Source of the DNA: Candidatus Uhrbacteria bacterium
GTDB taxonomy: Bacteria; Patescibacteriota; Patescibacteriia; UBA9934
DNA: 64,000 nt
Assembly (NCBI GenBank): GCA_943358395.1
Contig: CALRGY010000001.1
Span: forward strand, 8,008-72,007
Direction of reading: 5' to 3'
In this document: positions 4,199 through 61,195 of the stretch, one piece after another
Numbering within the stretch: position 1 is the stretch's first letter
How the letters are laid out: the number at the start of each line of letters is the position of its first letter
Program-made: the position numbers and the translations under genes
The notes under the pieces: model-generated
What the model was told of the DNA's origin: nothing
What the model saw: only the letters and a program-made list of their open reading frames with translations
Database searches by the model: none

Positions 4199-4596
4199 TG
4201 CTATACTTTCCCTGTATGTCTCTTCGTCAATATGTGGTGATGCTTGCGCTGGGAACGGCGATTAGTATTTCGGCGTGGTGTATTGTGATGATTTCTATTG
4301 ATCCAAGCACGGCAGGCGTGTTTGCGTTCTTTGTGTTCTACCTTACGCTTGGGGCAGGTATTGCGGGGCTTTTCACCATTGGTGGCACAATGATTCGGGC
4401 AAGAAAGTATGCGGAAGAGGAGGTTCATGCTGCCGTGGCACGTTCTTTTCGCCAAGGGGTGATGTTGTCTCTGCTGTTTCTCACATGCCTGTTTTTGCTG
4501 TCCCGTAATCTGTTTTCCCTCGGTACCATGGTGCTGCTTATCGTATTAGTAGGACTGATTGAGTTTTTGATGATGAGTGTGAGGAGGGAAACGTGA
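4198..4596 (+). CDS. small hydrophobic membrane protein (hypothetical)
   Basis: 133 aa with 3-4 predicted TM segments; its ATG overlaps the upstream stop (TGATG). Confidence 0.4.
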   Translation: MLYFPCMSLRQYVVMLALGTAISISAWCIVMISIDPSTAGVFAFFVFYLTLGAGIAGLFTIGGTMIRARKYAEEEVHAAVARSFRQGVMLSLLFLTCLFLLSRNLFSLGTMVLLIVLVGLIEFLMMSVRRET

Positions 4597-4597
4597 G

Positions 4598-4672
4598 GGG
4601 AATCTTTGGAGGGTGTTGGGAATGGGATGTGAAGGTGAAGTGATTTTTGAGGGTCGATGAGGGTGTTCATTA
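4598..4672. repeat. solo fragment of the G-rich arm motif of the 0.9-kb composite element
   Basis: The 21-mer ctttggagggtgttgggaatg is exactly shared with the reverse complement of 48519-48539; the sequence is G-tract rich. Confidence 0.6.
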
Positions 4673-4685
4673 TGCAATATCTGAG

Positions 4686-4761
4686 ATGTTAGATCGACCT
4701 AACATTTTGTATGCAAAAAATCCAATGATTTGATGAGTTTAATGTTAGATGGACGTAACAT
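4686..4761. promoter_or_regulatory. two near-identical 20-bp palindromic sites upstream of mreB (candidate operator pair)
   Basis: atgttagATCGACctaacat at 4686-4705 and atgttagATGGACgtaacat at 4742-4761, 36 nt apart, about 180 nt upstream of the mreB start. Confidence 0.4.
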
Positions 4762-4935
4762 CTTCAGAATCGCACATTGAAGTATCGGATCGGTACATAA
4801 AGATCGCCGACAACCCACATCCCGTCATTTCCCTCATTCACAACCTCTCCAAGACTCCCTCCCCATCATTTCTCATCTCACGTCAGTTGTGGATAGATCC
4901 ATTTCGAATATTCCCAATCCCTGGCAACATCATGG

Positions 4936-21116: not shown

Positions 21117-21243
21117 TGTCGGACTTCCCCATTTTGCCCATTTTCGGCTTGCATCATCGGAAACTTCTTCAACGTACCAAGAAGTACGTCTCAGAAGATT
21201 TCCTCGACGCGCACCGAAACTGGTCGAAAATGAGAAAGTCCTA
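21117..21243. repeat. 125-bp palindromic dispersed element, copy 3 (inverted orientation)
   Basis: Ends gtcggacttccccatttt and aaaatgagaaagtccta; internal gtacgtctca; produces the artefactual N-terminal extension of the clpB ORF. Confidence 0.85.
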
Positions 21244-24588: not shown

Positions 24589-25296
24589 ATGTCTCTTGCA
24601 GAAGAAGCGATCCTCTTCGCAAAGCACAACAAAAAAGAAATCTCCCGCCGGCTGACGAGTCTGGAAGAATACCCACCCAGCGATTCACCCGTCACCATAT
24701 TCATGGCCGGTTCGCCAGGGGCAGGAAAAACAGAGTATTCAAAAAGTTTACTCGCCTACCTCATAAAAAACACAAGTGATCGACCTATTCGTATTGATAG
24801 CGACGAGCTTCGCGGGGAAATTCCCGGATACACAGGGGAAAATTCATCGGAAATGCAGGGGGCTGTCTCCATTCTCCTGAGCGAAATGTACGACCGTGCA
24901 TTAAAGAACCGACAAACCGCTATTATCGACGGGACGTTATCACATTACGGAAAGGCTAAAGAGAACATCGAACGGTCTCTCAAGCGCAATCGGCAAGTGC
25001 TTATTTTCTACATCTACCAGCATCCAGAAGTCGCATGGCAGTTTACCGTTGCACGAGAGCACATTGAGGGACGAAACATTCCAAAACGTGCGTTTATTGA
25101 AAAATTTCTCGGCTCAAAAGCAACCGTCAATCAGATTTATCGGGAATTCAGCGACCGCATAACGCTCTTCTTGGCAAGAAAAAACTTCCAAACGCACGCC
25201 ATTGAAACAGTAGAAATCGTGAGTCCTCAACATTCGGGATTGGACGCATATCTCCCGGAAACATATACTGAAGAGGAATTAGCAAAATTACTATGA
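24589..25296 (+). CDS. zeta-toxin-like P-loop kinase (Zeta_toxin/AAA_33 family)
   Basis: Walker A GSPGAGKTE with following DxD-type motifs; length and architecture resemble zeta/PezT UNAG-kinase toxins. Confidence 0.4.
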   Translation: MSLAEEAILFAKHNKKEISRRLTSLEEYPPSDSPVTIFMAGSPGAGKTEYSKSLLAYLIKNTSDRPIRIDSDELRGEIPGYTGENSSEMQGAVSILLSEMYDRALKNRQTAIIDGTLSHYGKAKENIERSLKRNRQVLIFYIYQHPEVAWQFTVAREHIEGRNIPKRAFIEKFLGSKATVNQIYREFSDRITLFLARKNFQTHAIETVEIVSPQHSGLDAYLPETYTEEELAKLL

Positions 25297-25557: not shown

Positions 25558-25623
25558 TCGACAAAACCCCATTTTTATGCTAATATTAGCGGTTCCTCTA
25601 CCTGTACGGACACATTGTCCGTA
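25558..25623 (+). promoter_or_regulatory. sigma70-like promoter (TCGACA-N17-TGcTAATAT) plus downstream 8-bp-stem palindrome, copy A
   Basis: TCGACA 25558-63, extended -10 TGcTAATAT 25578-86, hairpin tacggaca-cat-tgtccgta 25605-23; duplicated at 27226-27287. Confidence 0.6.
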
Positions 25624-25657: not shown

Positions 25658-27098
25658 ATGCCGCTCACCCTTTTCTGGCTCATTGCCAGTTTCTTCCTTG
25701 GGTGTTCGCAAGAACCCCAAACCATCGTGTACGTCATCGCGGGTGCCCCCCCCTTCTGCGGTTATTTCGCAGGAGGAAGGAGCATTTGCCGAGGACGCAC
25801 CGGTGGAAACTCTCACCGACGCCCCCGCTGCCTATGATGGCGGCAACGGAGACGCATGCGATCTCGACGGGATCGATCCCTATGATCCCGAAAAAGTCAT
25901 CGCTTACGAGATCGTGAATCTCACCGACGAGCAGATCGCAGAGCTCGAGAGCATTGGATACTCATGGTGGGATACCTATTCGCAAATCCCAGAAGCTACT
26001 GTCAATGTCGACATCAACATAACAGTGAGTGAATGCGAAACAGTTTCCTTCACCGATGTAAACCTCGAGATCGGGCGGGAAATGGGTTATGTCGCCCCCT
26101 CTGCCAGCGGAGAAACAAGCTGGCGAGTGGACTATAACGACAGTAATTCCGCTCAAAAAATCGGTGGGTACGACAACGCGAGATGGTGGGCAGAAATCTA
26201 CAGCGGTCCGGTAGCGGAACCGTTTCTGTACCAATACGCCATCAAGTACTTACCGGAAACGCGTGGTCGACGATCTGCGTGGATGACGCTCTCAACGAAT
26301 TATTGGCCTGCGAATTTCGCGGCTGCCTATAACGCGTTTGAACCGTACAGTGAAGACATGATGGATCGGGATTACGGGAAAAACGGGTGGATCTCCATGT
26401 ACGAAGGCGACCCCGCGTACATGACCTGCCAAGTCGGAACCTGCGACGACACGCGCCTCAATGCGTGTTTGACCAAAGTTTACGACATCGAAGCCCTGGA
26501 TGCATCCGATTCACTCGTCGCAGAAACCGGTGACTGCTTCGACTGGTCCAACATCGCAGCAACATACGCTTGGGAGGTCTACTTCAGCCACTGGGACGGA
26601 TTCATGAGTCCGCACAATGGCTACGTAGAAGAATTGGGAGATTCGGCTTCGCCGGACACATCTCGATTCAGCCTCCGAATCGCAGGCGTGGATCTGGTAA
26701 ACCCCAACTGGGTAAGTGTTGAGGAGGTCACGTTTTACTCGTGGTCGACTCTCTACCCACCCTGCTGGAAGGATCAGTCTGAAGGTGGTTGCAGAGCGAT
26801 GCTCGTCGCCGATCTGCAGATCCTAATCGAAGCAGGACGAAGCGGAAAGATGGCGAGTGACCTCGACAAGGTTGCTGCATCCCGCCAAGCCCTCGGGCTC
26901 TGGTGGGAAGGGGTCGACGAGGGCTGGTACAACGACGAACGGGACTGGCTCACCGCCAGACCCGATTACGTCGAAATGGCCCTCACCGATGCTCTCGACC
27001 CCTGCAACGACTGGACTGCCGCAGGGTACAACCCCTGGGACACCGGTCTTGCAGGAGAATGTGGGGACACCGGGTTCATCGATACCGGAAAACCGTAA
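25658..27098 (+). CDS. secreted, possibly lipid-anchored W/Y/D-rich protein, frameshifted at a C8 tract (phase-OFF or sequencing error)
   Basis: ATG 25658 encodes the signal peptide MPLTLFWLIASFFLGC in frame 2. The long ORF continues in frame 0 (25683..27098). Deleting one C from the C8 run at 25746-25753 joins them: ...AGAPPSAVISQEEGAFAED... Confidence 0.55.
25746..25753 (+). repeat. C8 homopolymer tract inside the coding region
   Basis: Eight consecutive C at the signal-peptide/mature-protein junction; the same C8 tract is found at 27329-27336 upstream of the paralogue. Confidence 0.9.
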
Positions 27099-27225: not shown

Positions 27226-27287
27226 TCGACAAAACCCCATTTTTATGCTAATATTAACGGTTCCTCTGCCTGTACGGATGTTCCGTA
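27226..27287 (+). promoter_or_regulatory. sigma70-like promoter plus hairpin, copy B
   Basis: TCGACA 27226-31, TGcTAATAT 27247-54, hairpin tacgga-tgt-tccgta 27273-87; near-identical to 25558-25623. Confidence 0.6.
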
Positions 27288-27328
27288 AACAGACATGAAG
27301 AACCCAACAATTCGTGTCCTCGCGTATG

Positions 27329-27336
27329 CCCCCCCC
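27329..27336 (+). repeat. C8 homopolymer tract in leader/uORF of lipoprotein gene 2
   Basis: Eight C inside a 19-codon uORF (MKNPTIRVLAYAPPFCISA, 27295-27354) that ends 33 nt before the main ATG. Confidence 0.85.
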
Positions 27337-27387
27337 TTCTGCATTTCAGCATGAGGACGGAGCATTTGCCGAGGACGTGGAGAAGTC

Positions 27388-28092
27388 ATGAAGATTTTGA
27401 TTTTTTTGTTTACGCTTCTGGTCGGTGCCTCCTGCACCAACAAGGGTGCCGTCGACCGCACCCCCGACACCGAAACCTTCGACACGGGGGTGGCAGCGTC
27501 TGCCACCCCCGACGACGATGGCGACGGCTACACCGACGACGAGGACTGTGACGACACCGACCCCGCCGTCAACCCGGGAGCCACCGAGATCTGCGACAAT
27601 GTCGACAACGATTGTAACAGCCTCATCGACGATGCCGATCCCGACCTCGATCTCAGTACCGGCACCACCTGGTACGCGGACACCGACCGTGATGGGTACG
27701 GCCAGGGCACCGACCGCCCCACAAGCACCACCACCGCCTGCGACCAACCCGGCGGCTATGTCGCCGACAACACCGACTGCTACGACAACGACCCAGGAAA
27801 TTTTCCCGGGGCTACGGAAGCTTGTGACGGCATCGACAATGACTGCGATGGGGTGGTGGACGAGGGTTTCACGTATTACTACGCCACCCTCGACGAGGAT
27901 GGCGATGGCTGGGGCGGCAACGCCGACGCCGCTTCCGGTTGCCCGGGAACAAAGCCCCCGGACTACTCGGAGAACGTCGGCGACTGCGACGACACCGACC
28001 CCACCGTCAACCCAGAGGCCACCGAGATCTGTAACAACATTGACGATGACTGCGACACCCTCATCGACGAGGAGGAGATCTGCGTGCCATAG
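27388..28092 (+). CDS. secreted, possibly lipid-anchored protein with three MopE-type putative metal-binding repeats
   Basis: Signal peptide MKILIFLFTLLVGASC; three repeats of DxDGDG(Y/W)...C(D/Y)D(T/N)DP.VNP.ATE(I/A)C(D/N).(V/I)D(N/D)DC(N/D).(L/V)(I/V)D(D/E), the Pfam Cu-binding_MopE-like motif. Confidence 0.7.
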   Translation: MKILIFLFTLLVGASCTNKGAVDRTPDTETFDTGVAASATPDDDGDGYTDDEDCDDTDPAVNPGATEICDNVDNDCNSLIDDADPDLDLSTGTTWYADTDRDGYGQGTDRPTSTTTACDQPGGYVADNTDCYDNDPGNFPGATEACDGIDNDCDGVVDEGFTYYYATLDEDGDGWGGNADAASGCPGTKPPDYSENVGDCDDTDPTVNPEATEICNNIDDDCDTLIDEEEICVP

Positions 28093-28117
28093 GAGGCGGT
28101 GCGCAGCAAAAACGAAA

Positions 28118-28160
28118 CCCCCGAGCTGCAATACGGCAAGCTCGGGGGTCTTCAGTTTTA
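28118..28160. terminator. hairpin terminator, possibly bidirectional (lipoprotein 2 / ppa)
   Basis: 9-bp stem cccccgagc...gctcggggg placed between convergent genes. Confidence 0.55.
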
Positions 28161-28166
28161 CGGACA

Positions 28167-28754
28167 TTAGTCTTTGATCTTGGGCAGAATCTCTTTTTGG
28201 TATCTCTCAATACACTCTTCGATCACATTCACTGCTTCGTCCGCGTCGTAGAAGCCGAGGACTTTGCAGGTGCCTGGCTTTTTCAGGTGTTTGTAGAATT
28301 CGAAGTAGTGTGCGGTTTCTTTTGCCCAGTGCTCGCCGAGGTCTGTATATGACGTGATGTGATCAGCGCGCTTGTCGTCGGAAAGCACGCAAATTACTTT
28401 GTCGTCGGTTTCTCCCCCGTCTTCAAATTTCATGATGCCGATGACGCGGACTTCCACGAGCGATCCTGGAATAAGTGGCTCGACAACATTCGCGACGAGA
28501 ATATCCAGCATGTCGTTATCCTGATCCCACGTTTGAGGGATTAAGCCGTACACCGTTGGATACGCTAACGAAGAATACCCCACGCGGTCGAGCTTCAAGT
28601 GACCCGTTTCCGTAATAAACTCGTATTTATTAATACTGCCAGCATTGATTTCCACCAATCCGTTCAACACACGCTTTTCCTTATCTGCCCATGGAGAGAG
28701 CAAGTGCAGCAAGTTCGGCATGAATTTGTGAATCGGCACATCAAGATTTGCCAT
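28167..28754 (-). CDS. ppa: inorganic pyrophosphatase (family I)
   Basis: YPTVYGLIPQTWDQDNDMLDILV and DDKVI blocks typical of soluble PPase. Confidence 0.85.
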   Translation of the reverse strand: MANLDVPIHKFMPNLLHLLSPWADKEKRVLNGLVEINAGSINKYEFITETGHLKLDRVGYSSLAYPTVYGLIPQTWDQDNDMLDILVANVVEPLIPGSLVEVRVIGIMKFEDGGETDDKVICVLSDDKRADHITSYTDLGEHWAKETAHYFEFYKHLKKPGTCKVLGFYDADEAVNVIEECIERYQKEILPKIKD

Positions 28755-30221: not shown

Positions 30222-30240
30222 TATATAACCTATCTTATCG

Positions 30241-30364
30241 AGGACTTTCTCATTTTAGGCTAGTTTCGATGAAGATCGAGGAAAATTCGTGAGACGTACT
30301 TCATGGTACGTTGAACGATTTTCCGATGATCTGAGTCGAAAATAGACAAAATGAGGAAGGACTA
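30241..30364. repeat. 125-bp palindromic dispersed element, copy 4
   Basis: aggactttctcatttt...cgtgagacgtacttcatggtacgttgaacg...aaaatgaggaaggacta. Confidence 0.85.
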
Positions 30365-39164: not shown

Positions 39165-39449
39165 GGCACTATATTACGCTCTTTTTTCTACAGATACAAC
39201 GTCTTTCCAACCCAAAAGTATTGATTTCTTGGCTAATATATGCTATTATTTCCGGTTCACTTTCTTCACCGTCGTATGACCAATCTCCAACCAAGCCTCG
39301 ATTATCGTATTGCCGCCGGTATAACCAAAATCCTCGTCGCACTGCTTTTAGCATTGAACATTGCCTCAGTAATCCCTGCCCGATAAGTGCCTGCCTGAAT
39401 CTGCCCTCATCGAATCACGATCCCGAATAAAGGATCGTGATTTTTTATG

Positions 39450-39574
39450 TAGGACTTTCTCATTTTAGGCTAGTTTCGATGAAGATCGAGGAAAATTCGT
39501 GAGACGTACTTCATGGTACGTTGAACGATTTTCTGATGATCTGAGTCGAAAATAGACAAAATGAGAACGTCCTA
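39450..39574. repeat. 125-bp palindromic dispersed element, copy 5
   Basis: Near-identical to copy 4; ends exactly at the stop codon of the DUF218 gene. Confidence 0.85.
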
Positions 39575-41360: not shown

Positions 41361-41630
41361 ATGAAGAGAAGAACACTTGGAATACTGTGTTTGGTAGTTC
41401 CTATTTCACTTATTGTTTGCACACTCTCACTATACGCAATCCTCAGCTTCATTCTTGCAAGCGTCATGGGTTCATCGGGTGAGGCTTCTTCCGCCACAGT
41501 TCTTTTTGGAGGAATTGTGAAAGCTATTCTTAGCGCACTCGGATTGATAGCAGTTTTCGGTATTCCGCTCGGCATTCCTATAGGAATATATCTTCTGTGC
41601 ACACCAGAAAAATTAAAGGGAACTAAATAG
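41361..41630 (+). CDS. small membrane protein (hypothetical)
   Basis: About 90 aa with two TM segments. Confidence 0.35.
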   Translation: MKRRTLGILCLVVPISLIVCTLSLYAILSFILASVMGSSGEASSATVLFGGIVKAILSALGLIAVFGIPLGIPIGIYLLCTPEKLKGTK

Positions 41631-41633
41631 AAT

Positions 41634-41758
41634 TAGGACTTTCTCATTTTAGACCAGTTTCGATGAAGATCGAGGAAATCGTCTGAGACGTACTTCATGG
41701 TACGTTGAAGACGTTTCCGATGATCTGAGTCGAAAATGGGCAAAATGAGGAAGTCCTA
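41634..41758. repeat. 125-bp palindromic dispersed element, copy 6
   Basis: taggactttctcattttagaccag...gagacgtacttcatggtacgttgaag...gaggaagtccta. Confidence 0.85.
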
Positions 41759-45284: not shown

Positions 45285-45384
45285 AAGGAGGTACTAATTA
45301 CGTTACGCAGTGATAAAAGACAAAATCATCTGAAACAACTTCAAGATGATTGTGAATGAGGCTCGAGATTCCGTCTCAGATGAG

Positions 45385-45509
45385 TTAAACGGTTCCAGTT
45401 TAGGCGAGTTTCGATGCGCATCGAGCAAAGCTTCCGAGACGTACTTCACGGTACGTTGAGGAAGTTTGCGATGATGCAAGTCGAAAATCAACAAACTGGG
45501 GCCGTTTAA
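45385..45509. repeat. 125-bp palindromic dispersed element, copy 7 (divergent termini)
   Basis: Termini ttaaacggttccagttt and aaactggggccgtttaa around the conserved centre cgagacgtacttcacggtacgttgagg. Confidence 0.8.
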
Positions 45510-45818: not shown

Positions 45819-47744
45819 TCATTTACCCCCATATTCACTCTTTCTTCCCAAAATTGCCTTTATTCTACGTACTCCCGCAGAAACTGCCTCTTCCTTCACA
45901 AGAGTAATTCCACCAAGTTCTCCCGTGTGCTCTACATGAGGTCCCCCGCAAATTTCTTTACTAAAATCCCCAACAGAATACACCTTAATCTTGTCACCGA
46001 TCGTCGCGTACTTGTCGCCGAAGAGCCCAATAGCGCCACGATCCTTCGCCTCATCCACCGTGAGCATCTCAAATTTCACCGGAAGATCCTTCGTGATCTG
46101 TTCATTGATGATCTTTTCAACCTCAGTAACCTGTTCAGGAGTCATCTTTTCACCGTGGCTAAAGTCAAACCGCAGTCGTTCCGCCGTGATATTACTGCCT
46201 TTTTGGGCGACATGATTACCGAGCACCGTCCGCAACGCCTGATGCAAAAGATGCGTCGCTGTATGCAATTTCGTGGTTTCCACGGAATGATCGGCTAATC
46301 CCCCGGCGAACTTCTGCTCCGATCCGGCACGAGACAAATCTTGGTGTTTCTTAAAATCAACCGCGAATTGATCGGCGTCGACGTTGAGACTATACGATCG
46401 CTGCAACTCTTCCGTTGTCAGTTCCAACGGAAAACCAAAGCTTTGATACAGGTTAAACGCATCCGTCCCCGTCACCCCGTTCCCGCGATCCACAATCTTC
46501 TTCAGCTCACGAAGCCCCTGCTCAATAGTCTTCGCAAACTTTGTTTCCTCGGTTTCGATGGCACCCAGGATCGCTTCTCGCTTTTCATCGAGATTCGGAT
46601 ACGCCTCCTTATACATCTCGATGTAGGCCTCAGAAACCGATCGCACGATGGCATTCGCGACTCCGAGCTTCCGGGCAAAACGCACAGCTCTTCGAAGCAA
46701 ACGGCGAACGAAATACCCCTGATCCTTATTCCCCGGCAACACCCCGTCACCAATAAGGAATGTTGCAGCACGAATATGATCAAGAATCACCCGGAATGCG
46801 TAGGTATCCTCGTCATTCGACCCATAAGTCTTATTTGTCGAATGTTCGAGTGCTGCTCGTGCTGATGAAAACGCATCAATCAAAAACACATCCGGATTCC
46901 CATTCACCGCAGCCGCAATACGCTCTAATCCCCCACCGAAATCAACATTTCTCTGTGGCAATGCCTTAAATCCTTCTGCCGTTTTCACGTACTGCATGAA
47001 CACGTTGTTGCCGATCTCCATGAATCGGCCGCAATCACAGTTCACATGACACACAGGATCGGCGAGTGGAGACTGTTCATGAAGACCAAGTTCTACGCCA
47101 AAATCCCAAAACATTTCTGTATCTGGACCACCGGGTTCACCAATTGGCATGTTCGCTGGAACTCCAGCACGGCTCCACCAGTTTTTCTTTTCAGGGTACG
47201 TAAAAATACGACCACCCTGTAATCCGTTCGTATCCGCATCTTCGATAACAGACGTATCGATTCCAGAATCCGCGAAACATTTCGTCCAAAGCGCAATCGC
47301 CTCGTCATCACGACCCACTCCGATGTCGGAGTTTCCGCGAAACACCGTCACGTACAAATTCTTCGGCTCGAGTTTCAATTCGCCGATCAAAAACTCATAC
47401 ATCCACGGAATCTGTTCGTTCTTGAAGTAGTCGCCCAGACTCCAGTTGCCGAGCATTTCAAAGAATGTGGTGTGGCGGTTGTCGCCGACTTCTTCGATGT
47501 CTCCAGAACGGAAGCACTTCTGACTATCGGCAATACGGGTTCCCGCGGCGTGTTTCTCGCCAAGAAGATACTGAATCATCGGCTGCATCCCCGATCCCGT
47601 AAAAAGGGTTGTTGGATCATTTTCCGGCAATAATGACGACGACGGGATAACGGCATGCCCGTGTTTTTTAAAGAAATCAAGGTATTTTTGACGAATGTCG
47701 TTGGTGGTAAGCATAGAAAGATGAAGGAATTGTAGCCGAAGCAT
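45819..47744 (-). CDS. alaS: alanyl-tRNA synthetase (short form: catalytic, tRNA-recognition and editing domains, no C-Ala domain)
   Basis: FFKKHGH, SLLP.NDPTTLFT, the editing HxxxH motif (HTATHLLH) and the GGPHV region; only 641 aa. Confidence 0.88.
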   Translation of the reverse strand: MLRLQFLHLSMLTTNDIRQKYLDFFKKHGHAVIPSSSLLPENDPTTLFTGSGMQPMIQYLLGEKHAAGTRIADSQKCFRSGDIEEVGDNRHTTFFEMLGNWSLGDYFKNEQIPWMYEFLIGELKLEPKNLYVTVFRGNSDIGVGRDDEAIALWTKCFADSGIDTSVIEDADTNGLQGGRIFTYPEKKNWWSRAGVPANMPIGEPGGPDTEMFWDFGVELGLHEQSPLADPVCHVNCDCGRFMEIGNNVFMQYVKTAEGFKALPQRNVDFGGGLERIAAAVNGNPDVFLIDAFSSARAALEHSTNKTYGSNDEDTYAFRVILDHIRAATFLIGDGVLPGNKDQGYFVRRLLRRAVRFARKLGVANAIVRSVSEAYIEMYKEAYPNLDEKREAILGAIETEETKFAKTIEQGLRELKKIVDRGNGVTGTDAFNLYQSFGFPLELTTEELQRSYSLNVDADQFAVDFKKHQDLSRAGSEQKFAGGLADHSVETTKLHTATHLLHQALRTVLGNHVAQKGSNITAERLRFDFSHGEKMTPEQVTEVEKIINEQITKDLPVKFEMLTVDEAKDRGAIGLFGDKYATIGDKIKVYSVGDFSKEICGGPHVEHTGELGGITLVKEEAVSAGVRRIKAILGRKSEYGGK

Positions 47745-48600
47745 TGATGGGATGGAAGGGAATCGGAGGAAAAGTGTGTGAAAGTGAAGGGAGTCTTTGG
47801 AGGGGGTTGGGAAGAAGTGAGTCTTGGAATGGGCTGTGAACGGGGAGTCGGAGGGGGTGGGGCTTGCGTTTTCAAAAGGGGCATCCTACTAATGCAACTG
47901 AGTTGCATGTAGGGGATGGGATAGCGATTGGGATTCGATGAGGATCGATTGTGTTTATCGAGAATGATCGAGATTCTGATGGAGACGGTCGATGTGATGT
48001 TTCATAGGTTTTTTTGCGTACCATCGATCGTGTTGATCGATTTTCACCATCGGAATCTGACCATATGCTTTGAAAAAAGAGTGCTCTCGCTAACGCGAAT
48101 GATTCGCGATAAGGAAACGGTCATCGATATTCGGTGCCCCGATGAGGTACGGCGACAAGGCGTAGAATCGACGATTCATGATCGTGAGCATTACAGTCGT
48201 CTTTCGCTGATTTCACTGTTACGCCGTGTTCAGATGGAAAGTTTTTCAACCCTCAAAAGCGAGGGCGCCTTCACAAAACGCGATACCCAAGCTGCCGAAT
48301 ATACCCGTCGATAGCACCTATCGCATCACGTTCGCTTCCTAATCTCAAACCCATTCCAAAGATTCCCATCACTTCACGATCCCTCACCCTCTCCAACTCC
48401 CCCTTCCCACTTCGCTCTTCGAGCTTCGAGGGACAAGTGGCAGGAGGAGGGTTCTCATCCAACTCTCACAACCCACCCCAAAGACTCACATCACTTCCCA
48501 TTTCACGTTCCCGTCACCACATTCCCAACACCCTCCAAAGACTCACCTCACTTCCCATTCCCAACCCCTTCAAAAGATCACTCTCACGTCCCCTCATCCC
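47745..48600. repeat. 0.9-kb composite element A: G-rich tandem-repeat arm / ~400-bp non-coding core / C-rich arm
   Basis: G-arm 47750-47930 carries repeated gtgagtctttggaggggttggg units; the core begins ctaatgcaactgagttgcat and contains gcgaatgattcgc; the C-arm 48330-48600 is the inverted complement of the G-arm motifs; homologous but inverted relative to 56022-56950. Confidence 0.75.
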
Positions 48601-51976: not shown

Positions 51977-51997
51977 AGTAAAGAAATGAAAATCGTC

Positions 51998-52122
51998 TAG
52001 AAACAGATTATTTTCGACCAGTTTCGGTGCGCATCGAGGAAATGTCGTGAGACGTACTTCATGGTACGTTGAACGACTTTCCGATGATGCAAGCCGAAAA
52101 TGGGCAAAATAATCCGTTTCTA
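51998..52122. repeat. 125-bp palindromic dispersed element, copy 8
   Basis: Termini tagaaacagattatttt and aaaataatccgtttcta; the terminal cta (52120-52122) is the stop codon of pduL on the minus strand. Confidence 0.85.
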
Positions 52123-53556: not shown

Positions 53557-53681
53557 TAGGACTTCCTCATTTTGTCTATTTTCGACTCAGATCATCGGAA
53601 AATTGTTCAACGTACCAGGTAGTACGTCTCACGAATTTTCCTCGATCTTCATCGAAACTAGCCTAAAATGAGAAAGTCCTA
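53557..53681. repeat. 125-bp palindromic dispersed element, copy 9
   Basis: Near-identical to copy 2; its terminal cta (53679-53681) is the stop codon of the TrmH-like gene. Confidence 0.85.
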
Positions 53682-54842: not shown

Positions 54843-56021
54843 ATGAACACCCTTTGCCCAAAGCCTGATGTGTGCGGTTCGTGTGGTTGGAGCCATATTC
54901 CGTACGAAAAGCAGTTGCAGCAAAAGCTTTCAGACATTAATGGTTCATTTGCCATCAAAAAGCTTAAGCTCCACGTTGACGACATCTTCGCTTCCCCAAA
55001 AACGTCGCATTATCGCAATCGAATGGACTTTGTTATTAACTTCAAGGGCGAAATGGGGCTACGAGAAAAGGGAAAGTGGTGGAAGGTCATCGACGATCAT
55101 ACGTGCTTTTTGGGCGACGAAAAGATCGAAGCATTGTTCCCCATTGTTCGCGAATGGGTGCAGTCGTCTGGACTTTCATTCTTCGATCGGAAGTCCAACA
55201 TCGGTACCCTTCGCTACGCAGTGATTCGTTCAACAAGCATTGGCGAAACCATGATTATCATCGTCACCAGCGCGCCAAATGGTGAATCGCAAACTGGCGA
55301 GGGGAATGTTTCAATGATCGTAGAAACAAATGATGATACGGTGAAAATCGAGGCTGCACTCGCCGATCTTGCATCCAAGGCCAATACAACAACCCTTGTT
55401 TGGTCGATTAATCACACCATTTCCGACGTCTCCTTTGGTGATGATCTTCGCGTGATCAGTGGCGCAGGCGCGATCAACGAAATCATCGACGGAAAGAAAT
55501 TCCGTATTTCGCCCAACGCGTTCTTCCAAACAAATTCGTACGCTGCGCCGATGCTCCTCTCAACGGTACGCGAATTTGCTGGCGATCTTACGGGAAAAAC
55601 GCTTCTCGATTTGTACTGCGGCACCGGATTCTTTGCCGTGGCTCTTGCCGATGATGCCGCAAAAACCATCGGTGTCGAGCTCGTTCCTGATGCGATTCGC
55701 GACGCACGAGTCAATGCGGAGCTGAATGGAGGAGAGGTCACGTTCCATGACGCAAAGACGGAAAACTTCGACTGGATGGCGCTTGGTGCCGATGTCGTCA
55801 TTCTCGATCCCCCACGTTCCGGCATGCACGATAAAGCCCTTGCCGACGTCATTGCCGCAAAGCCCGCCCGTATTGTCTACATCTCCTGCAACTACAAAAA
55901 CTTCGCCCGCGAAATGGTAGAGCTTTCAAAATACTACACCGTCGAAGCCATCCGCGCCGTCGACATGTTCCCCCACACGCCACACGTGGAATTAGTAACG
56001 GCGTTGGTGTTGAAAAAGTGA
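54843..56021 (+). CDS. RlmD/TrmA-family (uracil-5)-RNA methyltransferase with N-terminal Fe-S Cys cluster
   Basis: CPKPDVCGSCGW...C cluster, FFQTN, SAM motif LDLYCGTGFFA and DPPRSG. Confidence 0.75.
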   Translation: MNTLCPKPDVCGSCGWSHIPYEKQLQQKLSDINGSFAIKKLKLHVDDIFASPKTSHYRNRMDFVINFKGEMGLREKGKWWKVIDDHTCFLGDEKIEALFPIVREWVQSSGLSFFDRKSNIGTLRYAVIRSTSIGETMIIIVTSAPNGESQTGEGNVSMIVETNDDTVKIEAALADLASKANTTTLVWSINHTISDVSFGDDLRVISGAGAINEIIDGKKFRISPNAFFQTNSYAAPMLLSTVREFAGDLTGKTLLDLYCGTGFFAVALADDAAKTIGVELVPDAIRDARVNAELNGGEVTFHDAKTENFDWMALGADVVILDPPRSGMHDKALADVIAAKPARIVYISCNYKNFAREMVELSKYYTVEAIRAVDMFPHTPHVELVTALVLKK

Positions 56022-56950
56022 CCTCTCCCCCATTTATGGGGGAGTCGGAGGGGGAGAGGGAAAGTGAAGTGAGTCTTTGGAGGGGTTAAGTGGTGACAGG
56101 AATCGGAGCAGCCAGATCCTGAGGCTCCGCCGAAGGACCCCGAACGAACCTACTCGTAAACAATTCGGGGCGTGAGGGATGGGAGTCTTGGAAGGGGTTG
56201 TGAGTCCGGACGTGAACCTGGACGTGAACTCTCCTCCATTTATGGGGGAGTTAGGAGGGGGCTGAATCGGAGGGGGTCTCATTTTGAAATGACACCCCCC
56301 CATTTTCGACCTTTTTCAACAGGACACTCTGCCGCGACGTGATCGTGAAATCGGCGAAAAGTGTCTTAAATGGGGACGCACGGAAATCATCAACGGCATA
56401 CGTCATCACTTACCCTGGATCGTTATCATCGGTATCGACCAACGGTTTCTTCTTGCGAATGATTCGCATTAGCAAGAAGCCTCTTTGGAAAACCACATAG
56501 TCAAATTCCGACCTCAAAAACTGATCACCTCAATCGGCTATACACAAAAGAATCAATAAAACATCACGTCGACTGTCTTCATCGGAATCCTCCTCACATA
56601 CGATGATAATAGTCCCTTCTCATCGAATCCCGATCATCATCCCGTCCTCTACATGCAACTCAGTTGCATTAGCAGGACCCCCCTTTTTAAATCGCAACCC
56701 CCTCTGGTTCAGATCCCTCCGATTCACAACCCTTTCAAAGACTCACCTCCCGAATCGTTTACCCGTCAGCTCATTTGAGGTCCTTCCCACTGCGCTAAAG
56801 CTTCGTGGGGACAGGTCGGCGTAGCCTCAGGATCTGGGACGCTCCGATTCCTGTTCTCCCTCCAACCCCATTCAAAGATCACCCTCCTCTCACCGCCTAC
56901 CCCCAACCCCTTCAAAGACTCCCCTCACTTTCGATTCTTCCGAGCCAGCG
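56022..56950. repeat. 0.9-kb composite element B (inverted copy of element A)
   Basis: G-arm 56022-56290; C-arm 56690-56950; the two arms are inverted repeats of each other (for example caggaatcggagcagccagatcctgaggctccgcc versus the reverse complement of ggcgtagcctcaggatctgggacgctccgattcctg); the core ends atgcaactcagttgcattag, the reverse complement of the start of core A; cores are roughly 70-80% identical in opposite orientation. Confidence 0.75.
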
Positions 56951-57260
56951 TCACGTGAAGCGTTGCGGCATTAAGCATGGTATTGAAACGTTCGTAATAA
57001 GGGGCATGATCTTTAGGATCAATGCCTTCTATTGTTTTCTGAAACGCTGCCCGCATAAAGTCATTTGCTCGACGAAAATCATGACCAGTGCGCTGGGCAC
57101 TGGAAACAACCTGCTCAAATCGACGAAAAAATATTTCCTCCACAAGAAAATCCTCCGCAGCCTGCATCATCGTCGGCGACTCTTTTGGAGTCAAAGCCTC
57201 AGAAAAAAATTCCTGCGAAGACGGAACACGCGAATCCTCCAATCGCCAAGGCTTTCCCAT
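56925..57260 (-). CDS. hypothetical protein (111 aa)
   Basis: ORF 3 nt downstream of the J-domain gene; no recognisable motif; its last codons run into the C-rich repeat arm. Confidence 0.35.
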   Translation of the reverse strand: MGKPWRLEDSRVPSSQEFFSEALTPKESPTMMQAAEDFLVEEIFFRRFEQVVSSAQRTGHDFRRANDFMRAAFQKTIEGIDPKDHAPYYERFNTMLNAATLHVTLARKNRK

Positions 57261-57262
57261 AT

Positions 57263-58060
57263 TTAATCGTCTTCACCAAACTCCCTCACAATCGCCCGCG
57301 CCAACATTGCTTTAAATTGCTCACGCAATGGTTCTCGAGATTTCACACTCATACCTTGAATGACCTGTTCAAACTTCCTCTGCACCTCAACGACTACTCC
57401 TATTCTGGCACCATAATTATTGCCCATGGCACGCATAAATATCTGAGCAAAAGCCTCTGGCTCAAGAAACGCTTCGACGTATTCCCGACAACACGTTTGC
57501 GCCAAATCTTCAAAACGGATCGAAAATGCTACCCGATCCCGGTACGGCACCCCCTCCAAATACGTCTCAAATTCGCCCCGTAACTTGTTCCTGGCATCAA
57601 GAGTGATGCCCTTACAGTCTTTCATCGCATCAGCAAACCGGGCAGAAAAGAAGGTGACATTCAAAAAGTTGCGCATTTGCTGTTCTTTTGGCGAAAGCGC
57701 ATCGATCCCCATCCGCTCGCGGGGTGGCGGAGGTTTCACCGCTTTCCTTGTACGAGAAACCGCCGGAGTCGTATTCTGAAGAGCATCATAAACACGTCGT
57801 TTCTTTTCATCACCGAGAACCTCATAAGCATCGGCAAACGCTCGAAATCGAGCCTCCGCCTCAGGATCATTCGGATGTCGATCGGGATGCGTTTCCATGA
57901 CCGCCTTTCTCCATGCACTTTTGATCGCTCGATCATCTGCGTCTTTTAATACGCCAAGCACAGCATAGTGATCAATCGGTGTATGCAATTCTACCGATGG
58001 CGCATTTCTTCCTCCTTCAAAACCTCTTCCCGATCGAGTCATATATTGCGACGTATTCAT
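57263..58060 (-). CDS. J-domain (DnaJ-like) protein
   Basis: J-domain with HPD motif (HYAVLGV...AWRKAVMETHPDRH...AYEVLGD...RRVYD); the C-terminal region is unrelated to DnaJ. Confidence 0.7.
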   Translation of the reverse strand: MNTSQYMTRSGRGFEGGRNAPSVELHTPIDHYAVLGVLKDADDRAIKSAWRKAVMETHPDRHPNDPEAEARFRAFADAYEVLGDEKKRRVYDALQNTTPAVSRTRKAVKPPPPRERMGIDALSPKEQQMRNFLNVTFFSARFADAMKDCKGITLDARNKLRGEFETYLEGVPYRDRVAFSIRFEDLAQTCCREYVEAFLEPEAFAQIFMRAMGNNYGARIGVVVEVQRKFEQVIQGMSVKSREPLREQFKAMLARAIVREFGEDD

Positions 58061-58135
58061 TGACCAAAACGCACTTTTCCGCTAACATAAGCCCATTATC
58101 TTTTGTTTCATCGTTCATTGCGATGAAGATCACCT

Positions 58136-59585: not shown

Positions 59586-59711
59586 TAAAGGTTTTTTCAT
59601 TTTGTCTCTTTTCGGCTTGCTGCGTCGCAAATTCGTTCAACGTACCGTTAAGTACGTCTCACGAACTTTGCTCCTTGCGCACCGAAAATAGCCTAAAATG
59701 AGAAAACCTCA
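59586..59711. repeat. 125-bp palindromic dispersed element, copy 10
   Basis: aggttttttcattttgtctcttttcggcttgc...cgttcaacgtaccgttaagtacgtctcacg...aaaatgagaaaacctca. Confidence 0.8.
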
Positions 59712-59715
59712 CTTC

Positions 59716-60657
59716 TCATGTCACATCACCGAATAAGAATACCTCATTTCGTCGCCGTTCCACGATCCCTTCGTCCACAAGCTTCGCAATCAGTGTTGTA
59801 AAACGCTGTTCATCGATGTCGTTCATCGGCGATCGTGCGCGTAATGCCTTCAGTGTCATCGATCCTTCACGTAATGCGTCAACGATGCGTCCGCGGAAGT
59901 AGCGATCGGTGCGTTCAAAGGGAATCGGAACCCCCTCCTTACTCCCCCTTTGCAGGGGGAGGGTACGCAACTGTTTCGGTTCCCTTCCTCCATGAAGTGG
60001 GGCTAATGGGCATAGTCCCCAGATATGACCTCGCGCCGAGCAATGCAGTGCGCCGATATCCATGAGCGCATGGTTCCATGTCCATACATCGCTGGGTCGA
60101 ATCAATTGCGCCAATTGCTGCATCGATTTCGGGTCGGATTTGTGCCGAGGAAATACTCGGCGGAAGATTCTCAGAATATTCGTATCCACCGGTGCGGCAT
60201 TGGGATTATGAAACGCAAACGCCGCAATGGCATTCGCGGTGTAGTCACCGATTCCTGGGAGCTGCTTCATCGCATGAATATCATTAGGAAGTTCTCCTCC
60301 AAGCTCGATCACCGCCTTCGCAAGCCGATGCAGCATAACGGCACGACGGTTGTACCCCAGCCCTTGCCATAATCGGAGCACATCGGCAGTGGATGCTGCG
60401 GCGAGGTCTGCCCACGTTGGAAATGCAAGTAAAAACGCTCGCCACTTTGGAATAACGCGATCGACTTGCGTTTGCTGCAGCATCATTTCTGAAAGCGCAA
60501 TAGCATACGGATCCGTGGTTCTTCGCCACGGCAAATCTCGCTTGTGTGCCGCAAACCATTCAAAGACGATGACGTAAAACCGTTCAACGCGCCCATTTGT
60601 AGAACGCTTTGACGCTTTCACTTTCCGTGTTGAATTCGATGGGTTTCGGGTTTTCAT
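59716..60657 (-). CDS. MutY/Nth-family HhH-GPD DNA glycosylase with Fe-S loop
   Basis: HhH motif LPGIGDYTANAIAAFAF, the Fe-S ligand region HCSARGHIWGLCP and a C-terminal extension. Confidence 0.7.
   Translation of the reverse strand: MKTRNPSNSTRKVKASKRSTNGRVERFYVIVFEWFAAHKRDLPWRRTTDPYAIALSEMMLQQTQVDRVIPKWRAFLLAFPTWADLAAASTADVLRLWQGLGYNRRAVMLHRLAKAVIELGGELPNDIHAMKQLPGIGDYTANAIAAFAFHNPNAAPVDTNILRIFRRVFPRHKSDPKSMQQLAQLIRPSDVWTWNHALMDIGALHCSARGHIWGLCPLAPLHGGREPKQLRTLPLQRGSKEGVPIPFERTDRYFRGRIVDALREGSMTLKALRARSPMNDIDEQRFTTLIAKLVDEGIVERRRNEVFLFGDVT
59931..59968. repeat. 36-bp G/C palindromic motif, in-frame inside the MutY-like CDS
   Basis: ccccctccttactccccctttgcagggggagggtacgc; encodes LPLQRGSKEGVP on the minus strand. 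Confidence 0.7.
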
Positions 60658-61195
60658 ACGGCGGCAGTGTGTTAAAGCTCATCGAGGAACCCGCTTCGCA
60701 CTCCTCGACCCCCTCCGACTCCCCCTTGGCAGGGGGAGGGTTCACGACGGATACGGTCGATTCCATCGCAAGGACATCAACCCGGTACAACCATCCATAA
60801 TTCACTAAGGTCATAGTTCCTGCTGTGGTGAAGTGAAGATCGCGTACGTCGATGATGACGGAACCCTTTACAACGATTCGCCCGCCATACAACGCCAGCT
60901 CCTCCTTCCCCTCACGATCATTAATCACCACCAGGCTCGTGCCGTCGTCCATCCAAATCGTTGATGAACCAAACGCCACTTTCATCATCGATGAACACGA
61001 CAAAACATTCTGCCGCGAAACATCAACGCTTTCACATCCAAGATCGGTGGATGGTGCCGTCTGACTCACAATCGTAATCACAGATCGTGGACGATACCCA
61101 TCTCCCCCGGCAAAGCGCGCATCAAAATGCCTGCCAATCAACAGTGCCATCGAAAGCACAACAATCACACCGATGATCCATCGATTAGAGTTCAT
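60584..61195 (-). CDS. membrane-anchored hypothetical protein
   Basis: N-terminal TM anchor; 203 aa; its 3' region overlaps the MutY-like start by 74 bp. Confidence 0.35.
   Translation of the reverse strand: MNSNRWIIGVIVVLSMALLIGRHFDARFAGGDGYRPRSVITIVSQTAPSTDLGCESVDVSRQNVLSCSSMMKVAFGSSTIWMDDGTSLVVINDREGKEELALYGGRIVVKGSVIIDVRDLHFTTAGTMTLVNYGWLYRVDVLAMESTVSVVNPPPAKGESEGVEECEAGSSMSFNTLPPYENPKPIEFNTESESVKAFYKWAR
60709..60746. repeat. 36-bp G/C palindromic motif, second copy, in-frame inside the hypothetical CDS
   Basis: ccccctccgactcccccttggcagggggagggttcacg; encodes NPPPAKGESEGV on the minus strand, in the same phase as copy 1. Confidence 0.7.

What the first reader, a model, noticed from the sequence alone, without database searches (positions are those of the whole stretch)
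56022..56950. Second, inverted and diverged copy (B) of the 0.9-kb composite element, lying between rlmD and a J-protein operon
The arms at 56022-56290 (G-rich) and 56690-56950 (C-rich) are imperfect inverted repeats of one another. The 400-bp core between them is homologous to core A but in reverse orientation: rc(56652-56671) equals ctaatgcaactgagttgcat, and the gcgaatgattcgc box and many 10-20-nt blocks are shared, at roughly 70-80% identity. No ORF is conserved between the two cores (the core A ORF at 47928..48314 has stop codons at the equivalent positions in core B), which supports a non-coding function. Because the two copies are clearly diverged rather than identical, the element is old and maintained, not a recent duplication. 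A cccccatttatggggg hairpin sits directly at the rlmD stop (56027-56042) and recurs at 56236-56252.
Basis: seen in the sequence. Interest (0 to 1): 0.75.

Follow-up and report, generated by a model that had tools for sequence, protein, structure and literature searches.

The report
Foldback repeat element carrying a zinc-regulator box
The 0.9-kb gap after rlmD is a non-coding, inverted-repeat ("foldback") insertion specific to this lineage of Candidatus Uhrbacteria. Its one well-conserved part is a short module containing a perfect copy of the DNA palindrome that elsewhere serves as the operator of zinc-uptake (Zur/Fur-family) regulators.

Summary
Window 56022-56950 is a diverged, inverted second copy (B) of the element at about 47737-48590 (A): blastn gives 73% identity over 318 nt, E = 1.6e-45. 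G-rich and C-rich inverted arms flank a core with no coding signal.

The reading "old and maintained structured RNA" is not supported. Both sites are empty in all related genomes fetched. The A-B distance (JC 0.3-0.5) is well below the neutral distance to the nearest relative (about 1.0). Substitutions are random with respect to predicted pairing.

The arms are built from a ~30-nt unit. This arm type also encloses unrelated cores: element C at window 4585-4890, and an element in the nearest relative. So the arms are a foldback, MITE-like shell.

The constrained part is a ~60-80-nt module at one edge of the core. It recurs in two other Uhrbacteria genomes. Its palindrome ATGCAAC-TGA-GTTGCAT equals the published Zur-box consensus. 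It also equals the palindrome in the promoters of three FUR-family genes in other Patescibacteria and unclassified MAGs.

Best reading (confidence about 0.5): a non-autonomous mosaic repeat element carrying a Zur-type operator. What that operator controls here is unknown. No promoter, regulated gene or transposase was found.

The parts
56022..56300 (+). Left arm of copy B, G-rich on the + strand. It contains arm units (U1, consensus about GAAGTGAGTCTTTGGAGGGGTTGGGAA) at 56062-56088 and 56175-56203, GAATCGGAGG-type motifs, and a B-specific segment at 56095-56176 that is mirrored in the right arm.
   Evidence: nhmmer with the U1 profile; inverted-repeat pairs; GC skew; Smith-Waterman score of the two B arms 41 vs null 11.5 +/- 1.8.
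56025..56044 (+). Hairpin CTCCCCCATTTATGGGGGAG, 4 nt after the rlmD stop codon. An imperfect second copy is at 56231-56250. Two more members of this hairpin family lie outside the element, at 59942 and 60719.
   Evidence: 4 matches in the window, 0.03 expected by chance.
56272..56300 (-). Innermost inverted-repeat unit at the far end of the core (GGGGGTCTCATTTTGAAATGACACCCCCC on the + strand). It is the partner of 56677-56704.
   Evidence: Inverted-repeat pair I2, 56254-56289 vs 56685-56720, 75%; read directly from the sequence.
56301..56676 (-). Non-coding core of copy B. The sense orientation, defined by alignment with copy A on the + strand, is the - strand. Homology to A is good at 56425-56704 and fades towards 56300.
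   Evidence: no coding signal.
56655..56671 (.). Box1: the 17-bp palindrome ATGCAAC-TCA-GTTGCAT, a Zur-type operator sequence. The extended imperfect palindrome spans 56646-56680.
   Evidence: Exact match to the consensus ATGCAACnnnGTTGCAT in PMC545781 Table 5. The same palindrome sits in the promoters of FUR-family genes in L004, L005 and L006. It is 100% paired in 4 copies, with one symmetric double change.
56677..56704 (-). P0 / inner arm unit next to box1. On the sense strand it reads GGGGGTTGCGATTTAAAAAGGGGGG, with a TTT-N-AAAA palindrome core. Together with box1 it forms the ~60-80-nt module conserved in A, B, L001 and L033.
   Evidence: Four-way alignment, 77% mean column identity; nhmmer hits to L001 (E = 1e-26) and L033 (E = 7e-10).
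56454..56468 (.). Box2: the 7-1-7 palindrome TGCGAAT-G-ATTCGCA. In copy A it reads CGCGAAT-G-ATTCGCG at 48094-48108, a symmetric change. It is a diverged internal repeat of the box1 module, about 200 bp away.
   Evidence: Direct-repeat family D2, 56448-56491 vs 56648-56691, 70%; the box1 profile also hits 56426-56493, E = 0.002.
56705..56935 (+). Right arm of copy B, C-rich on the + strand. U1 units in reverse orientation lie at 56723-56752, 56861-56886 and 56902-56930. A small inserted hairpin sub-unit lies at about 56782-56820. The stop codon of the 111-aa ORF (56925-56927, - strand) lies inside the outermost unit.
47737..48590 (+). Copy A. Arms are 47737-47885 and 48270-48590. Box1 is at 47892-47908 and box2 at 48094-48108. 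Relative to L015 it is an insertion between the alaS promoter and the DUF218 stop codon.
4585..4890 (+). Element C. It has the same arm type but a different, short, palindromic core with two ATGTTAG-N6-CTAACAT hairpins. It lies upstream of mreB.

Best explanation
Copy B is a decaying copy of a lineage-specific, non-coding foldback (long-inverted-repeat) mosaic element. It is MITE/BOX-like selfish or semi-domesticated DNA in a Candidatus Uhrbacteria genome, inserted at the 3' end of rlmD.

The G-rich and C-rich arms are long terminal inverted repeats assembled from a ~30-nt unit. That arm shell also occurs around unrelated cores.

The cargo of the A/B/L001 subfamily is a non-coding segment. Its only selectively constrained part is a ~60-80-nt module: a TTT-N-AAAA palindrome followed by the palindrome ATGCAAC-TGA-GTTGCAT.

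That palindrome most likely acts on double-stranded DNA as a binding site for the cell's Fur-family (Zur-type) repressor. On this reading the element spreads a metal-regulator operator to new intergenic sites.

Shown:
- the homology of B to A
- non-coding nature
- arm architecture
- presence/absence difference between related genomes
- sequence identity of box1 to Zur-type operators
- stronger conservation of the module than of the rest

Inferred:
- mobility
- binding by Zur
- any regulatory consequence
For: 1. It is a family, not a single locus.
- U1-type arms enclose A, B and C in the window, an element in L001, and a small element in L021, all at different loci.
- The module occurs in A, B, L001 and L033. 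In L033 it sits inside arms of unrelated sequence.

2. The sites are unoccupied in relatives.
- alaS and the DUF218 gene are 24 nt apart in L015.
- rlmD and era are 67 nt apart in L021, and overlap in L018.
- blastn and nhmmer find no A/B-like sequence at these sites.

3. The copies are younger than the species split: JC 0.32-0.49 for A vs B, against 1.0-1.3 at 4-fold sites.

4. It is non-coding and matches no Rfam family.

5. There is no fixed orientation relative to neighbouring genes. A is divergent from alaS. B lies between two convergent gene ends. C lies between two co-directional genes.

6. Box1 equals the predicted Zur box ATGCAACnnnGTTGCAT. The Desulfovibrio desulfuricans znuABC-zur site is ATGCAACtgaGTTGCAT (PMC545781).
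- The same 20-23-nt palindrome lies between the -35 and -10 of FUR-family genes (PF01475) in L004 and L005, and just downstream of a TATAAT hexamer in L006. In L005 a ZIP zinc-transporter gene follows.
- 12 of 13 unrelated hits to the 20-mer extend the dyad symmetry.

7. Constraint on the module.
- A and B are identical over 24 nt at box1, against a background of 64-74%.
- Identity is 85% over the first 80 nt.
- The module is the only part shared with L001 and L033.
- B keeps a perfect box although no gene start adjoins it. The selected role is therefore intrinsic to the element.
Against: - No target-site duplication could be defined, and the exact termini are uncertain.
- No transposase, recombinase or Fur-family gene is among the ~60 ORFs of the window (tblastn).
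- No autonomous partner was found.
- Only four module copies and five arm-type copies are known, all diverged. Recent mobility is therefore not shown.
- At 0.9 kb with arms of 230-280 nt, the element is larger and more G+C-rich than typical MITEs.
- In A, B and L001 the box lacks the flanking -35/-10 hexamers seen at zur promoters, so how Zur binding would matter is unclear.
- In L033 both half-sites carry the mirrored change ATGCAAC to ACGCAAC, and box2 changes symmetrically between A and B. This pattern is more typical of a selected hairpin than of a fixed operator.
- A and the L033 element both lie just upstream of alaS. That hints at a locus-specific role or at shared ancestry rather than random insertion.
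Confidence: 0.5

Rival explanations
1. Zinc-responsive non-coding RNA cassette. Box1 is the operator of an element-borne promoter. When zinc is scarce, Zur releases transcription of the core and of the distal arm. That arm reads as C-rich RNA with repeated CCUCC/CACCUC motifs in either outward direction, and could pair with Shine-Dalgarno regions.
For: - A perfect Zur-type box is kept in B, where there is no adjacent gene start.
- The consensus fold is better on the sense strand than on the antisense strand (alifold z = -4.9 vs -2.9).
- Zur-dependent sRNAs exist: ZinS in S. aureus (PMC13586535, listed).
- C-rich seed regions are typical of Fur-regulated sRNAs in Firmicutes (from my own knowledge).
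Against: - No sigma-70-like promoter lies around or upstream of the box in A, B or L001.
- There is no conserved terminator.
- Folds of the 120-137 nt after the box are unremarkable (z = -2.4, -0.35, -1.2).
- Sequence downstream of the module is not conserved between genomes.
- Substitutions are random with respect to pairing.
Confidence: 0.13
2. Large structured RNA gene. The G-rich and C-rich arms form a long closing helix around a folded core.
For: - The arms pair in the MFE fold (z = -9.5 sense, -10.4 antisense, -8.4 for copy A).
- The two arms of B are more alike than either is to an arm of A.
- The short palindromes keep their symmetry through double changes.
Against: - The fold is equally good on both strands, as for any inverted repeat.
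- There is no excess of compensatory change. The covariation term is +0.69, i.e. no support.
- No Rfam match at E <= 10.
- The element is absent from close relatives, so it is not a housekeeping RNA.
- The core half distal to box1 (its 3' half on the sense strand) has decayed to random similarity.
- The same arms enclose unrelated cores.
Confidence: 0.08
3. The palindromes are cis sites for a hairpin-recognising single-strand DNA transposase or recombinase, in the style of IS200/IS605-PATE or REP/RAYT. Their identity to a Zur box would reflect capture of a zur promoter fragment or convergence.
For: - Perfect dyad symmetry is kept through mirrored substitutions: L033 box1, and box2 in A vs B.
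- There are two like-oriented hairpins about 200 nt apart, with a shared 5' flank GCTAA(T/C)GC.
- No target-site duplication was found, as expected for such elements.
Against: - No Y1/HUH transposase is present in the window (Pfam calls).
- The element has long inverted arms, which IS200/605-type elements lack.
- The copy number is very low for REP/REPIN-type sequences.
- A 20-nt identity to operators at three FUR-family promoters is hard to explain by convergence.
Confidence: 0.12
4. Invertible switch (inverton). The inverted arms mediate flipping of the core, which changes the direction in which the module faces.
For: - On the + strand, both A and B carry the small hairpin sub-unit only in the right arm, while their cores have opposite orientation.
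- The module upstream of alaS faces opposite ways in the window and in L033.
- Inversion of Correia elements has been reported (PMC10969869).
Against: - No recombinase lies nearby.
- The one independent same-strain contig that spans copy A (L025) has the same orientation as the window. L020 breaks off 28 nt after the rlmD stop and does not reach the core of B.
- The arms are nearly symmetric, so the polarity argument rests on one small dispersed sub-unit.
- The arms in L033 are unrelated to those of A.
Confidence: 0.05
5. Decayed gene: a pseudogene of a zur-like gene together with its operator. The core length is similar to that of a fur-family gene.
For: - Box1 directly precedes a ~385-nt core. 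FUR-family genes at L004-L006 are 405-430 nt long and start 10-55 nt after the same box.
Against: - tblastn and a FUR profile run with filters off against all six frames of A, B and L001 give only noise.
- Pfam at E <= 10 finds nothing.
- There is no codon-phase bias.
Confidence: 0.03

Closest known systems
Prokaryotic MITEs that carry regulatory sites, e.g. the neisserial Correia element (review PMC10969869)
   Same: - Non-coding and intergenic, with terminal inverted repeats.
- Transcripts would fold into very stable stem-loops.
- Occupancy differs between related genomes.
- Carries a host-factor site. Correia carries an IHF site and promoters; here the site is a Zur-type box.
   Different: - Arms are 230-280 nt long and built from repeated ~30-nt units, not 20-30-nt TIRs.
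- G+C-rich with strong GC skew rather than AT-rich.
- 0.9 kb long, and very low in copy number.
- No target-site duplication and no parent IS identified.
Modular mosaic repeats: pneumococcal BOX (boxA-boxB(n)-boxC) and enterobacterial BIMEs/REP
   Same: - Built from interchangeable modules.
- Variable number of a short repeated unit.
- Outer modules are complementary, so the whole folds back.
- Elements cluster with other repeat families. A separate 130-nt MITE-like family is abundant in this window.
   Different: - No sequence relationship.
- The central cargo is much longer.
- The conserved module is a metal-regulator operator, which is not known for BOX or BIME.
Zur box of the ATGCAACnnnGTTGCAT type (Rodionov et al. 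2004, PMC545781)
   Same: Box1 matches all 14 specified positions. It even has the same spacer as the D. desulfuricans site. The same palindrome lies in three FUR-family gene promoters fetched here.
   Different: - Here it is not in a recognisable promoter, nor next to a zinc-homeostasis gene.
- It sits inside a repeat element, twice within 9 kb.
Eukaryotic foldback (FB) transposons
   Same: Long terminal inverted repeats composed of short tandem or interspersed sub-repeats, around a variable middle segment. Many copies are entirely non-coding.
   Different: A different domain of life, with no shown mechanistic link. The resemblance is architectural only.
Metal-regulator-dependent sRNAs (RyhB/FsrA class; Zur-dependent ZinS, PMC13586535)
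   Same: A Fur-family operator next to a non-coding segment with no adjacent protein gene.
   Different: No promoter, terminator or conserved RNA fold is detectable here.

Membership tests
MITE / non-autonomous inverted-repeat element | Terminal inverted repeats | tested here: met
   The arms at 56022-56300 and 56705-56935 are inverted repeats. They are unusually long and composite.
MITE / non-autonomous inverted-repeat element | Flanking direct repeats (target-site duplication) | tested here: inconclusive
   No TSD is visible at A, at the L021 element or at the L033 element when junctions are compared with empty sites. TGACC occurs at 56019-23 and at 58061-65, but it flanks the whole 2-kb insertion and may be chance. 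The review notes that direct repeats fade in old copies.
MITE / non-autonomous inverted-repeat element | No transposase; small size | tested here: met
   There is no ORF with any family match and no conserved ORF. The size of 0.85-0.93 kb is above the usual range. The relatives C and the L021 element are 0.27-0.31 kb.
MITE / non-autonomous inverted-repeat element | Multiple dispersed copies, with occupied and empty sites among related genomes | tested here: met
   There are five arm-type copies at five loci in three genomes, and four module copies. Empty sites are seen in L015-L018, L021, L023, L026 and L029. The copy number is low.
MITE / non-autonomous inverted-repeat element | A related autonomous element whose transposase could mobilise it | not testable with these tools
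   None is in the window (Pfam). The rest of the genome could not be fetched.
Zur (Fur-family) operator | Match to the 17-bp palindrome ATGCAACnnnGTTGCAT | tested here: met
   The match is exact in A, B and L001. L033 has ACGCAAC..GTTGCGT.
Zur (Fur-family) operator | Overlaps the promoter of a zinc-homeostasis or zur gene | tested here: not met
   This holds for L004, L005 and L006. It does not hold for A or B: there are no flanking -35/-10 hexamers, and B lies between two gene 3' ends.
Zur (Fur-family) operator | A cognate Fur-family regulator in the same genome that binds the site | not testable with these tools
   No Fur-family gene lies in the 64-kb window (and the Pfam calls). The remainder of the genome is not available. 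Binding needs an experiment.
Structured non-coding RNA | Covariation that supports a conserved secondary structure | tested here: not met
   Changed pairs are kept at the null rate. The RNAalifold covariation term is +0.69. Only the 7-bp palindromes covary. Power is low, with 2-4 sequences.
Structured non-coding RNA | Match to a described family | tested here: not met
   The Rfam 15 gathering scan of the window finds one tRNA only. E-value scans of both elements find nothing better than E = 0.8.
Inverton (invertible promoter or segment) | Both orientations present in a population; a nearby invertase | tested here: inconclusive
   The one independent same-strain contig that spans copy A (L025) has the same orientation as the window. 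L020 ends 28 nt after the rlmD stop and does not reach the core of B. There is no recombinase in the window. Reads could not be examined.
REP/REPIN-RAYT or IS200/IS605-derived PATE | Many copies of a short hairpin with a conserved guide tetranucleotide; a Y1 transposase in the genome | tested here: not met
   Only two box1 hairpins occur in 64 kb. No Y1 transposase is in the window. The long inverted arms are not a feature of that family.

The most novel reading that the evidence does not exclude
The module-bearing foldbacks are mobile zinc-responsive regulatory cassettes of CPR bacteria. A Zur-type operator, with a second related palindrome 200 bp away, controls an element-borne non-coding transcript or acts as a roadblock. 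The skewed inverted arms would act as bidirectional insulators or C-rich regulatory RNA. Transposition would then rewire the zinc response of streamlined genomes. Two independent module copies sit in front of the alaS / ribosomal-protein operon (window and L033).
Probability: 0.12. Interest if true: 0.75.

Novelty: new variant of a known kind. Interest (0 to 1): 0.42.

Why it matters
- CPR/Patescibacteria genomes are small and tightly packed, so 0.9 kb of non-coding DNA stands out.
- This window holds at least two repeat families: the foldback family described here and a 130-nt MITE-like family. They break short-read assemblies and mark lineage-specific insertions.
- If the Zur-type box is bound in vivo, this would be an example of a repeat element spreading a metal-regulator operator in bacteria. 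For uncultivated Uhrbacteria it would also give a testable handle on zinc regulation.
- If the box is not bound, the element is ordinary selfish DNA.

Tried and rejected
- **Known RNA family.** One Rfam gathering scan and two permissive scans found nothing.
- **Protein-coding core.**
  - The copy-A ORF has no homologue other than itself.
  - A 1006-aa concatenate of open frames from A, B and L001 gave no hit at E <= 10.
  - Pfam at E <= 10 found nothing.
- **Decayed zur gene.** tblastn and a FUR profile against all frames gave only noise.
- **DGR-like template/variable repeat pair.** The substitution spectrum is 80 transitions and 68 transversions, with no adenine bias.
- **Phage or plasmid origin.** blastn in distant mode found no match in either collection. 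Viral contig scans gave nothing relevant.
- **More homologues by exact 20-mer.** The genome and metagenome scans gave only L001 as a true element relative. I first dismissed the other 13 hits as chance. They turned out to be operator sites of the same palindrome.
- **Promoter and terminator scans.** Nothing conserved was found.
- **sRNA-like fold downstream of the box.** Not supported.
- **GANTC enrichment.** It is real (15-16 per kb vs 5.3 per kb), but the fmt coding region is equally dense, so it was not pursued.
- **A 5-bp TGACC duplication around the whole 2-kb insertion.** Noted, but the far end has no matching arm, so it was not adopted.
- **The window's own 109-kb contig.** It could not be retrieved.

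Full report
**What is there.** The stretch 56022-56950 lies between the stop codon of rlmD (56019-56021, + strand) and the 3' end of a 111-aa ORF on the - strand. A J-domain protein gene and then era follow. By RlmD homologues the organism is a Candidatus Uhrbacteria (Patescibacteria/CPR).

The region has three parts:
- a G-rich left arm (56022-56300)
- a core (56301-56704)
- a C-rich right arm (56705-56935)

The arms are inverted repeats of each other: pairs of 28-45 nt at 75-89%, and a Smith-Waterman score of 41 against a shuffled null of 11.5 +/- 1.8. They have opposite GC skew.

**Check of the observation.**
- The core is homologous to the core at 47859-48300 in reverse orientation. The repeat finder gives 213 nt ungapped at 74%. 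blastn gives 73% over 318 nt, E = 1.6e-45.
- Identity is not uniform. It is 85% over the first 80 nt on the box side, falls to 55-65% in the middle, and is about 40% (random level) beyond column 360. The overall figure is 64%.

**Not coding, and not a known RNA.**
- All frames of B carry stops, and mismatches are spread 19/16/20 over the three codon phases.
- The 128-aa ORF of copy A has no relative other than itself.
- A concatenate of all open frames found nothing, and Pfam found nothing.
- Rfam finds nothing.

I mapped the predicted fold of one copy onto the other. Of the pairs that changed, 41% stay paired, which is exactly the null expectation (p = 0.5). Double compensations number 6 against 5.9 expected. 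RNAalifold on three sequences gives a covariation term of +0.69. The arms pair equally well on both strands, as any inverted repeat would. A conserved global RNA structure is therefore not supported, although power is low with so few sequences.

**An insertion, younger than the species split.** I fetched syntenic loci from relatives with 80-89% identical RlmD.
- In L015, alaS and the DUF218 gene are 24 nt apart, where the window has the ~850-nt copy A.
- rlmD is followed directly by era in L021 (67 nt) and in L018 (overlapping). The window instead has 2.1 kb there: B, the 111-aa ORF and the J-protein gene.
- Other relatives hold different cargo at that spot.
- Four-fold degenerate sites of rlmD differ from the nearest relative by JC 1.0, whereas A and B differ by 0.32-0.49.

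The two copies therefore arose after that split. Most of their divergence needs no explanation beyond neutral decay, so "old and maintained" does not hold for the element as a whole.

**The arms are a shared shell.** They are built from a ~30-nt unit (about GAAGTGAGTCTTTGGAGGGGTTGGGAA), plus GAATCGGAGG motifs and a small hairpin sub-unit. A profile of the unit finds:
- 12 copies in the window, all of them in A, B and a third element C (4585-4890, upstream of mreB)
- one copy in L001
- two copies, inverted, around a 270-nt element in L021, the nearest relative, at yet another locus

C and the L021 element have unrelated, short, palindromic cores. The family is thus a foldback shell with variable content, at different sites in different genomes. 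Short-read contigs of the same strain break inside the arms. The outermost unit supplies the TGA stop codon of three abutting ORFs: the DUF218 gene, the 111-aa ORF, and the ORF ending at 4596.

**The conserved module and its identity.** The part of the core next to one arm is the only part shared with other genomes.
- L001 matches at 86% over 50 nt and at nhmmer E = 1e-26.
- L033 matches at E = 7e-10, where the module lies in a foldback with unrelated arms between murJ and alaS.

The module consists of a TTT-N-AAAA palindrome, about 12 nt of spacer, and the palindrome CTAATGCAAC-TGA-GTTGCAT.

My 20-mer scans returned 13 further loci, which I first took for chance hits. They are not. 12 of the 13 extend the dyad symmetry. 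In L004, L005 and L006 the palindrome lies in the promoter of a FUR-family gene. In L004 and L005 it lies between TTGACT and TAGAAT. In L005 a ZIP zinc transporter gene follows.

The 17-mer also equals the Zur-box consensus ATGCAACnnnGTTGCAT predicted upstream of znuABC-zur in Desulfovibrio. One of those sites has the same TGA spacer (PMC545781).

Box2 (TGCGAAT-N-ATTCGCA) is a diverged internal repeat of the module, 200 bp away. It has the 7-1-7 layout of classical Fur-family boxes; that comparison is from my own knowledge.

**What this does and does not show.**
- B keeps a perfect box although both of its neighbours end, rather than start, at the element. Against a 64-74% identity background this argues for selection on the box itself.
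- But the -35/-10 hexamers seen at zur promoters are missing in A, B and L001.
- No terminator or sRNA-like fold follows the box.
- No Fur-family gene lies in the window.
- In L033 both half-sites carry a mirrored change, as box2 does between A and B. That pattern also fits a selected hairpin.
- The cores are not decayed zur genes.
- No transposase or recombinase is present among about 60 window ORFs.

**Verdict.** B is a real, inverted, diverged copy of a non-coding composite element. The best-supported reading is a lineage-specific foldback, MITE/BOX-like mosaic repeat whose conserved cargo is a Zur-type operator module (confidence about 0.5).

| Rival reading | Confidence |
|---|---|
| Zinc-responsive RNA cassette | 0.13 |
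| Hairpin site for a single-strand DNA transposase | 0.12 |
| Large structured RNA | 0.08 |
| Inverton | 0.05 |
| Pseudogene | 0.03 |

The element resembles known kinds: MITEs with host-factor sites (PMC10969869), and the modular BOX and BIME repeats. It differs from them in its long composite skewed arms and in its metal-regulator box. I therefore rate it a new variant of a known kind, of moderate interest.

Noticed in passing
window 9180-9309, 15086-15210, 21119-21243, 30235-30364, 39445-39574, 41629-41758, 45380-45509, 51993-52122, 53557-53681, 59587-59711: A separate repeat family of about 125-130 nt has at least 10 copies in 64 kb, in both orientations and up to 98% identical. It has terminal inverted repeats AGGACTTYCTCATTTT...AAAATGAGAAAGTCCT, is mostly intergenic, and looks like a MITE. 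A same-strain short-read contig (L020) ends inside one copy.
   Followed up: partly
window 4585-4890: Third foldback element (C), with the same arm units but a different ~140-nt palindromic core holding two ATGTTAG-N6-CTAACAT hairpins. It lies directly upstream of mreB.
   Followed up: partly
window 56022-58070: Relative to the rlmD-era junction of relatives, the window carries a 2.1-kb insertion: copy B, a 111-aa ORF with no homologue (a cluster of one member), and a 265-aa protein with only a J domain. TGACC is present at both ends (56019-23 and 58061-65). The same junction holds different cargo in other relatives: small membrane ORFs in L015 and L026, and a RimK-like gene in L023 and L033.
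   Followed up: partly
window 59942-59961 and 60719-60738 (with about 49-nt flanks from 59932 and 60709): Two more members of the CTCCCCC-N6-GGGGGAG hairpin family seen in B's left arm. They lie around and inside the HhH-GPD glycosylase ORF. That ORF is about 10-45 aa longer here than in relatives.
   Followed up: no
L033 60-420 (reverse strand) and L033 420-770: In a relative (GCA_039738955), a module-bearing foldback with unrelated 45-57-nt arms lies between murJ and alaS. This is the same neighbourhood as copy A, but the element faces the other way. It is followed by a His/Asp-rich 66-aa ORF with a strong Shine-Dalgarno sequence and a TTGCTA-N17-TATTAT promoter, which is possibly metal-related.
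   Followed up: partly
L004 1640-1690, L005 4640-4690, L006 1020-1080, L007 3600-3640: The zur-type promoters of two MAGs, L004 (annotated Patescibacteria) and L005 (annotated only as 'bacterium'), are nearly identical over about 45 nt (TTGACTAATGCAACTSAGTTGCATTAGAATATRGGCATGAATAA). L006 has a second palindrome, ATGCGA-TTAAG-TCGCAT, just upstream of the box. A Gammaproteobacteria MAG (L007) has the same box in a canonical promoter, with weaker copies nearby.
   Followed up: partly
window 47714 vs 47744: The longest alaS ORF starts at 47744. By comparison with relatives, the true start is the ATG at 47712-47714. The insertion of copy A replaced the -35 region of the alaS promoter, while the -10 (TACAAT, 47731-47736 on the - strand) is retained.
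   Followed up: partly
window 25558-25610 / 27226-27278 and 25733-25797 / 27316-27377; 27536-27632 / 27974-28070: Further repeats lie around two ORFs with no Pfam match (25683-27098 and 27346-28167). They include a 53-nt, 96% identical upstream segment containing TTATGCTAATATTAGC, and internal Cys/Asp-rich coding repeats.
   Followed up: no
window 47737-48590 and 56022-56935: GANTC sites are 3 times denser in A and B (15-16 per kb) than in the window as a whole (5.3 per kb), and 4-5 times the composition expectation. The fmt coding region near 33.5-34.4 kb is equally dense.
   Followed up: partly
window 24589-25296: A zeta-toxin family protein (PF06414) is encoded among housekeeping genes.
   Followed up: no
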